Both the position numbers and the translations under genes were made by a program. Shown here piece by piece: positions 130 through 3,398 of a DNA stretch of 3,569 bases. Source of the DNA: Escherichia phage MS2. Numbering within the stretch: position 1 is the stretch's first letter; every line of letters begins with the position of its first letter. The stretch lies in sequence record EF108465.1; one strand, given 5' to 3'. A model generated the notes under the pieces. It made no database searches. It was not told the origin of the DNA and saw only the letters and a list, made by a program, of their open reading frames with translations.

Positions 130-1311
130 ATGCGAGCTTTTAGTGCCCTTGATAAGGAGAGCAAGACCTTCGTCCCTTCCATTCGCGTTTACGCGAACGG
201 TGAGACCGAAGATAACTCATTCTCTTTAAAATATCGCTCGAACTGGACTCCCGGTCGTTTTAACTCGACTGGGGCCAGAACGAAGCAGTGGCACTATCCC
301 TCCCCGTATTCGCGGGGGGCGTTAAGTGTCACGTCGATAGATCAAGGTGCCTATAAGCGCAGTGGGTCATCGTGGGGTCGCCCGTACGAGGAGAAAGCCG
401 GTTTTGGCTTCTCTCTCGACGCACGCTCCTGCTACAGCCTCTTCCCTGTAAGCCAGAACTTGACTTACATCGAAGTGCCGCAGAACGTTGCGAATCGGGC
501 GTCGACCGAAGTCCTGCAAAAGGTTACCCAAGGTAATTTCAACCTTGGTGTCGCCCTAGCAGAGGCCAGATCGACAGCCTCACAACTCGCGACGCAAACC
601 ATTGCGCTCGTGAAGGCGTACACTGCCGCTCGTCGCGGTAATTGGCGCCAGGCGCTCCGCTACCTCGCCCTAAACGAAGATCGAAAATTTCGATCAAAAC
701 ACGTGGCCGGCAGGTGGTTGGAGTTGCAGTTCGGATGGTTACCACTAATGAGTGATATCCAAGGTGCATATGAGATGCTTACGAAGGTTCACCTTCAAGA
801 GTTTCTTCCTATGAGAGCCGTACGTCAAGTTGGTACTAACATTAAGTTAGATGGCCGCTTGGCGTATCCAGCTGCAAACTTCCAGACAACGTGCAACATA
901 TCACGACGTATCGTGATATGGTTTTACATAAACGATGCACGTTTGGCATGGTTGTCGTCTCTAGGTATCTTGAACCCACTAGGTATAGTGTGGGAAAAGG
1001 TGCCTTTCTCATTCGTTGTCGACTGGCTCCTACCTGTAGGTAACATGCTCGAGGGCCTTACGGCTCCCGTTGGATGCTCCTACATGTCAGGAACAGTTAC
1101 TGACGTAATAACGGGTGAGTCCATCATAAGCGTTGACGCTCCCTATGGGTGGACTGTGGAGAGACAGGGCACTGCTAAGGCCCATGTTTCAGCCATGCAT
1201 CGAGGGGTACAATCCGTATGGCCAACAACTGGCGCATACGTAAAGTCTCCTTTCTCGATGGTCCATACCTTAGATGCGTTAGCATTAATCAGGCAACGGC
1301 TCTCTAAATAG
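130..1311 (+). CDS. mat: Maturation protein (A protein; pilus attachment / assembly protein), 393 aa
   Basis: A 1182-nt ORF, the first gene after the 129-nt 5' UTR. The translation (MRAFS...LIRQRLSK) is recognisably the MS2/R17 maturation protein. The start codon here is ATG, and the stop is TAG at 1309-1311. Confidence 0.97.
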   Translation: MRAFSALDKESKTFVPSIRVYANGETEDNSFSLKYRSNWTPGRFNSTGARTKQWHYPSPYSRGALSVTSIDQGAYKRSGSSWGRPYEEKAGFGFSLDARSCYSLFPVSQNLTYIEVPQNVANRASTEVLQKVTQGNFNLGVALAEARSTASQLATQTIALVKAYTAARRGNWRQALRYLALNEDRKFRSKHVAGRWLELQFGWLPLMSDIQGAYEMLTKVHLQEFLPMRAVRQVGTNIKLDGRLAYPAANFQTTCNISRRIVIWFYINDARLAWLSSLGILNPLGIVWEKVPFSFVVDWLLPVGNMLEGLTAPVGCSYMSGTVTDVITGESIISVDAPYGWTVERQGTAKAHVSAMHRGVQSVWPTTGAYVKSPFSMVHTLDALALIRQRLSK

Positions 1312-1334: not shown

Positions 1335-1727
1335 ATGGCTTCTAACTTTACTCAGTTTGTTCTCGTCGACAATGGCGGAACTGGCGACGTGACTGTCGCT
1401 CCAAGCAACTTCGCTAACGGGGTCGCTGAATGGATCAGCTCTAACTCGCGCTCACAGGCTTACAAAGTAACCTGTAGCGTTCGTCAGAGCTCTGCGCAGA
1501 ATCGCAAATACACCATTAAAGTCGAGGTGCCTAAGGTGGCAACTCAGACTGTTGGTGGTGTAGAGCTTCCTGTAGCCGCATGGCGTTCGTACTTAAATAT
1601 GGAATTAACTATTCCAATTTTCGCTACGAACTCCGATTGCGAGCTTATTGTTAAGGCAATGCAAGGTCTCCTAAAAGATGGAAACCCGATTCCCTCAGCA
1701 ATCGCAGCAAACTCCGGCATCTACTAA
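1335..1727 (+). CDS. cp: Major coat (capsid) protein, 130 aa including the initiator Met
   Basis: The translation MASNFTQFVLVDNGGTGDVTVAPSNFANGVAEWISSNSRSQAYKVTCSVRQ...SAIAANSGIY matches the MS2 coat protein as I recall it. A weak SD (GGAG, 1323-1326) lies upstream, and the ORF ends in the tandem stops TAA TAG (1725-1730). Confidence 0.98.
   Translation: MASNFTQFVLVDNGGTGDVTVAPSNFANGVAEWISSNSRSQAYKVTCSVRQSSAQNRKYTIKVEVPKVATQTVGGVELPVAAWRSYLNMELTIPIFATNSDCELIVKAMQGLLKDGNPIPSAIAANSGIY
1427..1433 (+). promoter_or_regulatory. Min Jou sequence, 5' partner (TGAATGG) inside the coat gene
   Basis: TGAATGG at 1427-1433 is the exact reverse complement of CCATTCA at 1738-1744, just upstream of the replicase start. 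This is the known long-distance interaction that couples replicase translation to coat-gene translation in MS2. Confidence 0.85.
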
Positions 1728-1905
1728 TAGATGCCGGCCATTCAAACATGAGGATTACCCATGTCGAAGACAACAAAGAAGTTCAACTCTTTATGTATTG
1801 ATCTTCCTCGCGATCTTTCTCTCGAAATTTACCAATCAATTGCTTCTGTCGCTACTGGAAGCGGTAATCCGCACAGTGACGACTTTACAGCAATTGCTTA
1901 CCTAA
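1678..1905 (+). CDS. lys: Lysis protein L, 75 aa, in the +1 frame overlapping the coat 3' end and the replicase 5' end
   Basis: The ORF translates to METRFPQQSQQTPASTNRCRPFKHEDYPCRRQQRSSTLYVLIFLAIFLSKFTNQLLLSLLEAVIRTVTTLQQLLT, a basic N-terminal region followed by a hydrophobic C-terminal segment typical of MS2 L. It overlaps coat across 1678-1727 and replicase across 1761-1905, and ends in TAA at 1903-1905. Confidence 0.93.
   Translation: METRFPQQSQQTPASTNRCRPFKHEDYPCRRQQRSSTLYVLIFLAIFLSKFTNQLLLSLLEAVIRTVTTLQQLLT
1725..1730 (+). other. Tandem stop codons (TAA TAG) terminating the coat gene
   Basis: Both stops are in frame with coat and read directly from the sequence. In MS2, termination here is what lets ribosomes reinitiate at the upstream lysis start. 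Confidence 0.9.
1738..1744 (+). promoter_or_regulatory. Min Jou sequence, 3' partner (CCATTCA) upstream of the replicase start
   Basis: Exact reverse complement of 1427-1433 (see that feature). Confidence 0.85.
1746..1764 (+). promoter_or_regulatory. Replicase translational operator (TR) hairpin, the coat-protein binding site and high-affinity packaging signal
   Basis: ACATGAGGATTACCCATGT has a stem of ACATG/CATGT plus G-C pairs, a bulged A at 1751 (-10), and a 4-nt loop ATTA (1754-1757) with A at -4 and U at -5. It contains the replicase SD (GAGGA, 1750-1754) and the start codon (1761-1763). It matches the canonical MS2 operator exactly. Confidence 0.97.
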
Positions 1906-3398
1906 GGGACGAATTGCTTACAAAGCATCCGACTTTAGGCTCTGGTAATGACGAGGCGACCCGTCGCACCTTAGCTATTGCTAAGCTGCGGGAGGCGAAT
2001 GATCGGTGCGGCCAGATAAATAGAGAAGGTTTCTTACATGACAAATCCTTGTCATGGGATCCGGATGTTTTACAAACCAGCATCCGTAGCCTTATCGGCA
2101 ATCTTCTCTCTGGCTACCAATCGTCGTTGTTTGGGCAATGCACGTTCTCCAACGGTGCCTCTATGGGGCACAAGTTGCAGGATGCAGCGCCTTACAAGAA
2201 GTTCGCTGAACAAGCAACCGTTACCCCCCGCGCTCTGAGAGCGGCTCTATTGGTCCGAGACCAATGTGCGCCGTGGATCAGACACGCGGTCCACTATAAC
2301 GAGTCATATGAATTTAGGCTCGTTGTAGGGAACGGAGTGTTTACAGTTCCGAAGAATAATAAAATAGATCGGGCTGCCTGTAAGGAGCCTGATATGAATA
2401 TGTACCTCCAGAAAGGGGTCGGCGCTTTTATTAGACGCCGGCTCAAATCCGTTGGTATAGACCTGAATGATCAGTCGATCAACCAGCGTCTAGCTCAGCA
2501 AGGCAGCGCAGATGGTTCGCTTGCGACGATAGACTTATCGTCCGCGTCCGATTCCATTTCCGACCGCCTAGTGTGGAATTTCCTTCCACCTGAGCTATAT
2601 TCATATCTTGATCGTATCCGCTCGCACTACGGAATCGTAGATGGCGAGACGATACGATGGGAACTATTTTCCACGATGGGAAATGGGTTTACATTTGAGC
2701 TAGAGTCCATGATATTCTGGGCAATAGTCAAAGCAACCCAAATCCATTTTGGTAACGCCGGAACCATAGGCATCTACGGGGACGATATCATATGTCCCAG
2801 TGAGATTGCACCCCGTGTGCTAGAGGCACTTGCCTACTACGGTTTTAAACCGAATCTTCGTAAAACGTTCGTGTCCGGGCTCTTTCGCGAGAGCTGCAGC
2901 GCGCACTTTTACCGTGGTGTCGATGTCAAACCGTTTTACATCAAGAAACCTGTTGACAACCTCTTTGCCCTGATGCTGATATTAAATCGGCTACGGGGTT
3001 GGGGGGTTGTCGGAGGTATGTCAGATCCACGCCTTTACAAGGTGTGGGTACGACTCTCCTCCCAGGTACCTTCGATGTTCTTCGGTGGGACGGACCTCGC
3101 TGCCGACTACTACGTAGTCAGCCCGCCTACGGCGGTCTCGGTATATACCAAGACTCCGTATGGACGGCTGCTCGCGGATACCCGTACCTCGGGTTTCCGT
3201 CTTGCTCGTATCGCTCGAGAACGCAAGTTCTTCAGCGAAAAGCATGACAGTGGTCGCTACATAGCGTGGTTCCATACTGGAGGTGAAATCACCGACAGTA
3301 TGAAGTCCGCCGGCGTGCGCATCATGCGCACTTCGGAGTGGCTAACGCCGGTTCCCACATTCCCTCAGGAGTGTGGGCCAGCGAGCTCTCCTCGGTAG
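1761..3398 (+). CDS. rep: RNA-dependent RNA polymerase (replicase beta subunit), 545 aa
   Basis: A 1638-nt ORF whose translation (MSKTTKKFNSLCIDLPRD...) is recognisably the MS2 replicase. It contains the catalytic YGDD motif, and its start sits inside the operator hairpin. Stop is TAG at 3396-3398. Confidence 0.98.
   Translation: MSKTTKKFNSLCIDLPRDLSLEIYQSIASVATGSGNPHSDDFTAIAYLRDELLTKHPTLGSGNDEATRRTLAIAKLREANDRCGQINREGFLHDKSLSWDPDVLQTSIRSLIGNLLSGYQSSLFGQCTFSNGASMGHKLQDAAPYKKFAEQATVTPRALRAALLVRDQCAPWIRHAVHYNESYEFRLVVGNGVFTVPKNNKIDRAACKEPDMNMYLQKGVGAFIRRRLKSVGIDLNDQSINQRLAQQGSADGSLATIDLSSASDSISDRLVWNFLPPELYSYLDRIRSHYGIVDGETIRWELFSTMGNGFTFELESMIFWAIVKATQIHFGNAGTIGIYGDDIICPSEIAPRVLEALAYYGFKPNLRKTFVSGLFRESCSAHFYRGVDVKPFYIKKPVDNLFALMLILNRLRGWGVVGGMSDPRLYKVWVRLSSQVPSMFFGGTDLAADYYVVSPPTAVSVYTKTPYGRLLADTRTSGFRLARIARERKFFSEKHDSGRYIAWFHTGGEITDSMKSAGVRIMRTSEWLTPVPTFPQECGPASSPR
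2775..2786 (+). other. rep: YGDD catalytic motif (polymerase motif C) of the replicase
   Basis: Codons TAC GGG GAC GAT are in the replicase frame and encode Y-G-D-D within the sequence ...GTIGIYGDDIICP... The GDD motif is the hallmark of RNA-dependent RNA polymerases. Confidence 0.95.

What the first reader, a model, noticed from the sequence alone, without database searches (positions are those of the whole stretch)
1729..1751. Possible C-to-U change right after the coat stops, creating an AUG and an Arg-to-Cys change in L
The window reads TAATAG-ATG-CCGGCC at 1725-1739, whereas I recall the MS2 reference as TAATAG-ACG-CCGGCC. If that recollection is right, the change at 1732 has two effects. 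It turns L residue 19 from Arg into Cys (STNRCRPF here versus STNRRRPF). It also creates an AUG at 1731-1733 directly abutting the coat stop codons, opening a 6-codon mini-ORF (MPAIQT) that ends at the TGA at 1749-1751 inside the operator hairpin. An AUG at the exact site where coat ribosomes terminate could compete with lysis-gene reinitiation or perturb the operator. This may simply be the normal R17 sequence; I cannot verify that from memory.
Basis: inference. Interest (0 to 1): 0.45.

Follow-up and report, generated by a model that had tools for sequence, protein, structure and literature searches.

The report
R17's normal base in coat-terminator hairpin
The ATG just after the coat stop codons is the ordinary wild-type sequence of phage R17: its middle U is the ancestral base that completes a conserved RNA hairpin, lab MS2 is the odd one out, and there is no sign that the ATG is a conserved start codon.

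Summary
The window reads TAATAG-ATG-CCGGCC at 1725-1739 and MS2 reads ACG. L differs from MS2 L only by R19C. A 6-codon ORF (MPAIQT) runs from 1731 to the UGA at 1749-1751 in the operator stem.

The window is phage R17: its four proteins are exactly ABO33464-67, which fits record EF108465.

U1732 is present in every MS2-like isolate outside the MS2 clade (14 of 14 checked). A tree rooted on fr makes MS2's C the derived state.

U1732 pairs with A1719 in a 10-bp hairpin (1714-1723 / 1728-1737, loop CUAA containing the UAA stop). This is the published "coat terminator" structure, which lies directly against the Min Jou long-range helix. Its neighbouring pair 1718:1733 shows all four Watson-Crick types across isolates. 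The triplet is therefore AUG, AUU, AUC or AUA depending on the wobble base of the coat Gly129 codon.

The AUG is the reverse complement of C-A-U in GGC-AUC. It has no Shine-Dalgarno sequence, is predicted fully paired, and occurs in 1 of 16 natural isolates. L residue 19 (R/C/F/S/Y) is a passenger. Capture of terminating ribosomes is untested and unlikely to matter. Already known; low interest.

The parts
1732..1732 (+). The variable base. It is U in the window (R17) and C in the MS2 clade. It pairs with A1719, and it is the first base of L codon 19.
1714..1723 (+). 5' arm of the coat-terminator (CT) hairpin, CCGGCAUCUA. It covers the coat codons (U)CC GGC AUC UA(C) for Ser-Gly-Ile-Tyr.
1724..1727 (+). 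CT tetraloop CUAA. The first coat stop, UAA, is 1725-1727.
1728..1737 (+). 3' arm of the CT hairpin, UAGAUGCCGG. It contains the second stop UAG (1728-1730), the AUG (1731-1733) and CCGG.
1718..1718 (+). Wobble base of coat Gly129 (GGC). It co-varies with 1733: C-G, A-U, G-C and U-A across isolates.
1731..1751 (+). Potential mini-ORF AUG CCG GCC AUU CAA ACA UGA (MPAIQT*), in the coat frame. Present as an AUG-started ORF only in R17 and in two lab MS2 clones.
1738..1744 (+). 3' strand of the Min Jou long-range helix, directly abutting the CT stem.
   Evidence: pair probability 0.98 for six pairs, 0.27 for the outermost; literature
1427..1433 (+). 5' strand of the Min Jou helix, inside the coat gene.
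1746..1764 (+). Replicase translational operator (TR) hairpin. It contains UGA 1749-1751 and the replicase AUG 1761-1763. Rfam RF02359 matches 1729-1764.
1678..1905 (+). Lysis gene L (75 aa), in the +1 frame relative to coat. Residue 19 is Cys here.
1335..1727 (+). Coat gene. The protein is identical to MS2 coat.

Best explanation
The window is the wild-type genome of phage R17, and ATG 1731-1733 is its normal sequence.

U1732 is the ancestral, near-universal base of MS2-like phages. Its role is at the RNA level: it pairs with A1719 in the coat-terminator (CT) hairpin, a 10-bp stem (1714-1723 / 1728-1737). The first coat stop, UAA, sits in the CUAA tetraloop and the second stop, UAG, sits in the stem. 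The hairpin lies directly 5' of the Min Jou long-range helix, which keeps the replicase start closed until the coat gene is translated.

The third base of the triplet, 1733, is set by pairing with the wobble base of coat Gly129 (1718). Because R17 uses GGC-AUC, perfect complementarity forces ...AUGCC in the 3' arm. The AUG is thus a by-product of the stem sequence, not a start signal.

Lab MS2 acquired U->C at 1732. This gives an A.C mismatch and a stem about 4.4 kcal/mol weaker than R17's.

L residue 19 follows whatever the stem requires (Cys, Arg, Phe, Ser or Tyr). It lies in the N-terminal domain, which is dispensable for lysis.

Shown here: strain identity, base states, covariation, fold energies, lack of a Shine-Dalgarno sequence.

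Inferred: that selection acts on the hairpin; that a stronger CT slightly tightens replicase repression; that the AUG is functionally silent.
For: Identity:
- The four proteins are exactly ABO33464-67, each on one 3569-nt contig.
- EF108464 carries ABO33460-63, and EF108465 is R17 according to PMC3499819 and PMC4751978.
- ORF coordinates match the R17 row in PMC3499819.

Base states:
- 217 phage records carry the ACG 30-mer. All that I inspected belong to the MS2 clade.
- 2 records carry the ATG 30-mer, both lab-evolved MS2 clones.
- Outside the MS2 clade, J20, Hu-Sh, DL1, DL16, DL52, DL54, FrSaffron, FrHenna, FrBlood, LT898437, M12 and JP501 all have U1732.
- On a neighbour-joining tree rooted with fr, C1732 is confined to the MS2 clade, which is sister to R17.

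Hairpin:
- The minimum-free-energy structure is a perfect 10-bp stem, -16.4 kcal/mol with U against -12.0 with C.
- It is predicted in every isolate. RNAalifold returns the same consensus structure.
- 96.7% of cells are paired, against 18-42% when the partner columns are slid.
- Pair 1718:1733 is AU 4, CG 2, GC 1, UA 1. Pair 1719:1732 is AU in 8 of 9 distinct sequences.
- In a 400-nt context the CT pairs have probability about 1.0. The Min Jou helix is contiguous with CT, and AUG 1731-1733 is unpaired with probability about 0.001.

Start-codon quality:
- The best anti-SD duplex upstream of AUG 1731 is -1.7 kcal/mol. The values for L, coat, replicase and maturation are -3.3, -6.1, -6.1 and -10.9.

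Literature:
[quoted passage not shown] It states that C1718U 'destabilizes CT -> may increase replicase translation'.
- The L N-terminal domain is dispensable or regulatory.
Against: - The scanning-reinitiation work summarised in PMC12548453 shows that post-termination ribosomes can pick the nearest start codon. An AUG 3 nt after UAA could therefore in principle be used. No data here exclude that.
- Covariation rests on one pair and only 9 distinct sequences from one species. The other stem pairs are invariant or have only one-sided (G.U) changes, or single mismatches.
- The primary papers on CT and Min Jou function (van Himbergen 1993) and on R17 RNA sequencing (Nichols 1970) could not be read. 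CT function is therefore cited second-hand. My recollection that the 1970 R17 sequence already showed AUG is unverified.
- The EF108465 record itself is not in the searchable collection. The identity is inferred from protein accessions.
Confidence: 0.88

Rival explanations
1. The AUG is a working restart codon. Ribosomes that terminate at the coat UAA have melted the CT hairpin. Some of them slide 3' by a few nucleotides, reinitiate at AUG 1731, make MPAIQT and terminate at UGA 1749 inside the operator. This would divert ribosomes from back-scanning to the L start at 1678, or help open the operator and replicase start. R17 would then differ from MS2 in lysis timing or replicase yield.
For: - The AUG is separated from UAA by one codon and abuts UAG.
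- In fr coat-lysis constructs, ribosomes initiated exclusively at the start codon nearest the stop, on either side of it (review PMC12548453).
- SD-less coupling at stop/start overlaps is known in phage GA (PMC9955659 abstract).
- A ribosome sitting on the stop would hold both hairpin arms unpaired (inference).
- The MS2 lineage lost the AUG at the cost of a stem mismatch.
Against: - The AUG is in 1 of 16 natural isolates. Twelve others have AUU, AUC or AUA there, two have ACG and fr has ACC, so no restart ORF is conserved.
- There is no Shine-Dalgarno sequence.
- At equilibrium the AUG is fully paired.
- For MS2 itself, the same review says an added nearer L start did not monopolise initiation. 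That fits RNA unfolding rather than pure scanning.
- R17 is a long-used viable lab phage, and MS2 clones that gained the AUG were recovered alive from two independent lines.
- Any effect is therefore small or tolerated.
Confidence: 0.07
2. The change matters at the protein level. Cys19 in L, replacing a basic Arg in the N-terminal domain that interacts with DnaJ, tunes lysis timing in R17.
For: - R19C is the only L difference between R17 and MS2.
- Domain 1 of L interacts with DnaJ and appears regulatory. It affects oligomerisation and insertion in vitro.
Against: - Residue 19 is R, C, F, S or Y among natural isolates. It tracks the base needed to pair with the Gly129 wobble base, with no shared chemical character.
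- The N-terminal soluble domain is dispensable for lysis.
Confidence: 0.04
3. The T at 1732 is a sequencing or cloning error, or a private mutation of the sequenced R17 clone.
For: The exact L protein is known from a single record and was not found in any other assembly. C<->U changes at this site arise readily in the lab.
Against: U1732 is the state in every other non-MS2 isolate, and it is the state that completes the stem. Parsimony places U at the R17/MS2 ancestor. An error would have had to recreate the ancestral, structurally favoured base.
Confidence: 0.02

Closest known systems
Phage R17 genome, GenBank EF108465 (Emesvirus zinderi; Friedman/Vinje set of F+ RNA coliphages)
   Same: All four encoded proteins are identical to ABO33464-67. 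The genome is 3569 nt with the same ORF coordinates (130-1311, 1335-1727, 1678-1905, 1761-3398).
   Different: Nothing detectable. The record itself is absent from the searchable collection, so nucleotide-level identity was inferred, not shown.
Coat terminator (CT) hairpin of MS2, upstream neighbour of the Min Jou interaction (van Himbergen et al. 1993, as cited in PMC11979748)
   Same: Same position, same arms, same loop containing the coat stop, and the same contiguity with the Min Jou helix and the operator.
   Different: R17's version is perfectly paired (10 bp, -16.4 kcal/mol). MS2's has an A1719.C1732 mismatch (-12.0). R17's is the most stable among the isolates examined.
Rfam RF02359, bacteriophage MS2 operator hairpin
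   Same: The window matches at 1729-1764 with 60.8 bits (gathering score 40). The operator stem-loop is identical to MS2's.
   Different: In the unpaired 5' flank of the model, the consensus reads AGACu where the window reads AGAUG. The finding lies in this flank and not in the operator stem.
Termination-reinitiation (scanning) coupling of the coat and lysis genes in fr, MS2 and GA (Adhin & van Duin 1990; Berkhout et al. 1987)
   Same: A start codon lies within a few nucleotides of the coat stop, where post-termination ribosomes are available.
   Different: The R17 AUG is in the coat frame and not the L frame. It opens only a 6-codon ORF, lacks a Shine-Dalgarno sequence and is not conserved. 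No evidence shows that it is used.

Membership tests
Phage R17 (EF108465) | Encoded proteins identical to those of the record | tested here: met
   Exact look-up returns ABO33464.1 (mat), ABO33465.1 (coat), ABO33466.1 (L) and ABO33467.1 (rep). These are contiguous with EF108464's ABO33460-63. EF108465 is R17 in PMC3499819 and PMC4751978.
Phage R17 (EF108465) | Genome length and ORF map as published for R17 | tested here: met
   3569 nt, with ORFs 130-1311, 1335-1727, 1678-1905 and 1761-3398. This matches the R17 row of the table in PMC3499819.
Phage R17 (EF108465) | Nucleotide identity to the deposited record | not testable with these tools
   The record is not in the phage collection. The best available matches are MS2 records at 96.1-96.9%.
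Coat terminator (CT) hairpin of MS2-like phages | Local stem-loop enclosing the coat stop codon(s) | tested here: met
   The minimum-free-energy structure pairs 1714-1723 with 1728-1737, with loop CUAA. The same fold appears in all 16 MS2-like sequences; fr has a shifted-register version.
Coat terminator (CT) hairpin of MS2-like phages | Lies immediately 5' of the Min Jou long-range helix | tested here: met
   CT ends at 1737. Min Jou pairs 1738-1744 with 1427-1433 are predicted with probability 0.98 for six pairs and 0.27 for the outermost.
Coat terminator (CT) hairpin of MS2-like phages | Pairing maintained in evolution (covariation) | tested here: met
   96.7% of cells are paired, against 18-42% when slid. 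Pair 1718:1733 shows AU, CG, GC and UA. G.U replacements occur at 1717:1734 and 1721:1730. Caveat: only one pair changes on both sides, and there are only 9 distinct sequences.
Coat terminator (CT) hairpin of MS2-like phages | Stability modulates replicase translation | not testable with these tools
   Available only second-hand, from PMC11979748 citing van Himbergen 1993. The primary paper is not held.
Rfam RF02359 (MS2 operator hairpin) | Covariance-model score above the gathering threshold | tested here: met
   60.8 bits against a threshold of 40, E = 4e-13, model positions 1-36 of 36.
Functional translational restart site (termination-reinitiation) | Start codon within a few nucleotides of the upstream stop | tested here: met
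   UAA UAG AUG at 1725-1733.
Functional translational restart site (termination-reinitiation) | Start codon conserved among relatives | tested here: not met
   AUG occurs in R17 only. Other natural isolates have AUU (9), AUA (2), AUC (1), ACG (the MS2 clade) and ACC (fr).
Functional translational restart site (termination-reinitiation) | Shine-Dalgarno complementarity or an accessible start | tested here: not met
   The best anti-SD duplex is -1.7 kcal/mol. The unpaired probability of 1731-1733 is about 0.001. Neither feature is strictly required for restart by a ribosome already on the RNA.
Functional translational restart site (termination-reinitiation) | Demonstrated initiation (toeprint, profiling or peptide) | not testable with these tools
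   No data were found in the held literature.

The most novel reading that the evidence does not exclude
R17 and MS2 may form a natural isogenic-like pair for an old question: is the L gene switched on by back-scanning of post-termination ribosomes, or by RNA unfolding followed by fresh 30S binding? R17 places a full-strength AUG one codon after the coat UAA, inside a hairpin that the terminating ribosome has just melted. If scanning ribosomes take the nearest start, R17 should divert some of them into the MPAIQT mini-ORF. They would then terminate inside the operator, lowering L restart or feeding replicase initiation. In that case MS2's U->C change, bought at the price of a stem mismatch, would be an escape from that drain.
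Probability: 0.07. Interest if true: 0.4.

Novelty: already known. Interest (0 to 1): 0.1.

Why it matters
It matters little for discovery. The sequence is the deposited wild-type R17 genome and the hairpin is a named, published element.

What the analysis adds is modest:
- The 'MS2 reference' state at 1732 is the derived outlier, not the norm.
- The coat-terminator stem is maintained by textbook covariation. All four Gly129 wobble bases are matched at 1733.
- That pairing explains why L residue 19 is hypervariable, and why an AUG appears only when Gly129 is GGC and the stem is perfect.

It is a clean example of an overlapping reading frame (L) being dragged along by an RNA-structure constraint. 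It also points to a cheap experiment on restart-codon choice.

Tried and rejected
- Environmental diversity. The degenerate pattern AATAGANNNNNNCCATTCNAACATGAGG returned 1 IMG/VR contig, 1 metagenome contig and no GTDB genome contigs, both hits of the ACG (MS2) type. An operator-only pattern added one unrelated 16-kb contig.
- Exact-protein look-ups. The window's coat protein is on thousands of contigs. The 10 places returned are high-coverage MS2 genomes fused to bacterial genes (coverage in the contig names about 3,800-26,000x for nine of them), all ACG. The window's L protein is on no called gene, because gene callers skip the overlapping ORF.
- Fetching records. EF108465 and NC_001333 are not in the collection. 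fr was obtained as X15031.
- Literature. A sequence-string search (UAAUAGAUG and similar) gave only unrelated primer hits. The primary papers are not held: van Himbergen 1993, Berkhout 1985, Betancourt 2009, Licis 1998 and Chamakura 2017. Nichols 1970 is held only as a citation. I therefore could not confirm from text that the 1970 R17 sequence shows AUG, nor whether C1732U was reported in the MS2 evolution lines.
- Two independent losses of the AUG (in MS2 and in M12/JP501). I considered this as evidence of selection against the AUG and rejected it. The M12 state (C1718.A1733) and the JP501 state (U-A) can equally be intermediates on the route from A-U to C-G. Only the MS2 U->C change is polarised with confidence.
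- Operator perturbation. Rejected, because predicted operator and Min Jou pairing are unchanged by U versus C.

Full report
WHAT THE WINDOW IS

The 3569-nt window has the complete gene map of an MS2-group levivirus: maturation 130-1311, coat 1335-1727, L 1678-1905, replicase 1761-3398. It is 96.1-96.9% identical to MS2 records and identical to none in the phage collection.

Exact-sequence look-up shows that its four proteins are ABO33464.1, ABO33465.1, ABO33466.1 and ABO33467.1. Isolate DL16, record EF108464, carries ABO33460-63. The window is therefore the next record, EF108465. Two papers list EF108465 as strain R17, from sewage in Philadelphia (PMC3499819 and PMC4751978). Its published ORF coordinates are those of the window. 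EF108465 is absent from the searchable collection, which is what one expects if the window itself was withheld.

THE OBSERVATION

TAATAGATGCCGGCC occurs once, at 1725-1739. MS2 reads TAATAGACGCCGGCC.

The window differs from NC_001417 at 130 positions, 115 of them transitions. Position 1732 is the only difference between 1638 and 1865.

L differs from MS2 L by R19C only. Translating 1719-1751 gives IY**MPAIQT*. The terminating UGA at 1749-1751 lies in the 5' arm of the operator stem (Rfam RF02359 match 1729-1764, 60.8 bits).

HOW COMMON THE ATG IS

A 30-mer centred on 1732 needs an exact 28-base word in megablast, so it only hits records carrying the same base there.
- The ACG form hits 217 records.
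- The ATG form hits 2. Both are lab-evolved MS2 clones from different lines and time points: FJ799470 (L1.G10.3) and FJ799695 (L3.G60.19).

That count is dominated by lab MS2. Reading the natural isolates base by base gives a different picture:

| Triplet 1731-1733 | Isolates |
|---|---|
| AUU | J20, Hu-Sh-YMS, DL1, DL16, DL52, DL54, FrSaffron, FrHenna, FrBlood |
| AUC | LT898437 |
| AUA | M12, JP501 |
| AUG | R17 |
| ACG | MS2, ST4 |
| ACC | fr |

So U1732 is universal in MS2-like phages outside the MS2 clade. On a whole-genome neighbour-joining tree rooted with fr, the topology is (J20/DL/Fr/GER group),(M12,(R17,(MS2 clade))). C1732 is confined to the MS2 clade. The evolutionary event is therefore U->C in MS2, not C->U in R17.

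WHAT THE BASE DOES

Region 1712-1739 folds into a perfect 10-bp hairpin: CCGGCAUCUA (1714-1723), loop CUAA (1724-1727), UAGAUGCCGG (1728-1737). Its energy is -16.4 kcal/mol. With MS2's C the A1719.C1732 pair is lost and the energy is -12.0.

The first stop, UAA, is in the loop. The second stop, UAG, and the AUG form the upper and middle part of the 3' arm.

Every MS2-like isolate folds the same way, at -9.7 to -16.4 kcal/mol. R17's hairpin is the most stable. fr has a weaker hairpin in a register shifted by two and no tandem stop.

On an alignment of 11 MS2-like isolates (9 distinct sequences):
- 96.7% of pair cells are standard pairs, against 18-42% when the 3' partners are slid by 1-3 columns.
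- Only 1 of 500 column shuffles reaches the observed pairing, and likewise 1 of 500 for the covariation score.
- Pair 1718:1733 shows all four Watson-Crick types: A-U in the J20 group, C-G in R17 and MS2, G-C in LT898437, U-A in JP501. There is one C.A mismatch, in M12.
- Pair 1719:1732 is A-U everywhere except MS2.
- DL1 has G.U at 1717:1734 and LT898437 has U.G at 1721:1730.

RNAalifold independently returns the same consensus structure.

Position 1718 is the wobble base of coat Gly129. All four glycine codons are used, and each is matched by its complement at 1733. The triplet 1731-1733 is simply the complement of that wobble base plus the 'AU' of the Ile130 codon. It reads AUG only when Gly129 is GGC and the stem is perfect.

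THE HAIRPIN IS A KNOWN ELEMENT

[quoted passage not shown] It says the structure affects replication. It interprets an MS2 mutation at the partner position, C1718U, as 'Destabilizes CT -> may increase replicase translation', citing van Himbergen et al. 1993.

A partition-function fold of 1400-1800 reproduces the layout. CT pairs have probability about 1.0. The Min Jou helix (1427-1433 / 1738-1744, probability 0.98 for six of its seven pairs) starts at the nucleotide after CT. The operator hairpin follows at 1746-1764.

Changing U1732 to C, or G1733 to A, alters only the mutated pair.

By the same logic as for C1718U, R17's stronger CT may slightly tighten the coat-dependent gate on replicase. 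This is an inference.

IS THE AUG A START?

Evidence against:
- The best anti-SD duplex upstream is -1.7 kcal/mol. The values are -3.3 for L, -6.1 for coat and replicase, and -10.9 for maturation.
- At equilibrium 1731-1733 is unpaired with probability about 0.001. Independent 30S entry is therefore effectively excluded.
- The AUG is not conserved.

- A ribosome terminating at UAA has both arms melted.
- In fr coat-lysis constructs, post-termination ribosomes initiated exclusively at the start nearest the stop, upstream or downstream (Adhin & van Duin 1990, as summarised in PMC12548453).
- For MS2 itself, however, the same review notes that a second, nearer L start did not monopolise initiation. 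That fits RNA unfolding rather than pure scanning.

R17 is a classic, fully viable phage, and MS2 clones that acquired the AUG were recovered from two lines. Any cost is therefore small.

I rate functional capture at about 7%. It is not excluded, and it could be tested with a four-allele reporter series that separates 'AUG' from 'stem stability'.

THE L PROTEIN

Residue 19 is Cys (R17), Arg (MS2), Phe (9 isolates), Ser (1) or Tyr (2). There is no chemical theme, and the residue is fully explained by the RNA pair. It lies in the N-terminal soluble domain. That domain is dispensable for lysis and acts at most as a DnaJ-dependent regulator. A protein-level role for R19C is unlikely (about 4%).

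HISTORY

This stretch of R17 RNA was sequenced by Nichols in 1970. That paper introduced the tandem-stop 'fail-safe' idea. I recall it showing UAAUAGAUG, but I could not read it, so this rests on memory only.

VERDICT

The direction of change is reversed. The real feature is the coat-terminator hairpin, of which the AUG is a by-product. Already known; low interest.

Noticed in passing
window 130-132: The maturation gene starts with ATG in the window (R17) and in M12, J20, DL1, DL16 and LT898437. Only the MS2 clade uses GTG. Like C1732, this is a derived peculiarity of MS2.
   Followed up: partly
window 2001-2009 (replicase residues 81-83): The 1976 MS2 reference (NC_001417 / V00642) reads GGTGATCGC (Gly-Asp-Arg). 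R17, modern MS2 sequences (GQ153927, MK213795, ST4) and M12/JP501 read GATCGGTGC or a close variant; these and fr encode Asp-Arg-Cys, and J20, DL1, DL16 and LT898437 encode Glu-Arg-Cys. This looks like a local error or a compensated frameshift in the old reference.
   Followed up: partly
window 1721-1730: The second coat stop, UAG (1728-1730), is base-paired with CUA (1721-1723) in the coat-terminator stem. fr has a shifted, weaker hairpin and has no tandem stop (UAA GAA). The famous R17 tandem stop may be kept at least partly for RNA structure rather than as a read-through fail-safe.
   Followed up: partly
L002 (FJ799695) 1703-1721, equivalent to window 1746-1764: FJ799695 is one of the two lab MS2 clones that gained U1732. 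It also carries an operator-loop change, AUUA -> AUAA (window position 1756, the -5 loop base that contacts coat protein).
   Followed up: no
L009 (LT898437) 1678-1680: The German isolate has GTG instead of ATG as the L start codon. fr's annotated L starts with TTG. The L start codon is therefore not fixed within the species.
   Followed up: no
L020-L029 (ENA assemblies): Complete MS2 genomes are fused to unrelated bacterial genes in contigs of 5-12 kb; nine of the ten contig names give coverage of about 3,800-26,000x. These look like assembly chimeras from MS2 spike-in controls. All carry ACG.
   Followed up: no
window 1745: The base between the Min Jou strand and the operator is A in R17, MS2, M12, JP501 and DL1. 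It is C in the rest of the J20/DL/Fr group, LT898437 and fr (CCATTCAA versus CCATTCCA). I did not examine it for pairing consequences.
   Followed up: no
L014 5859-5878 (IMG/VR contig, 16 kb): An operator-like sequence, ACATGAGGAAAACCCATGTC, occurs in an unrelated DNA contig with no levivirus context. It is probably a chance match or an unrelated start region.
   Followed up: no
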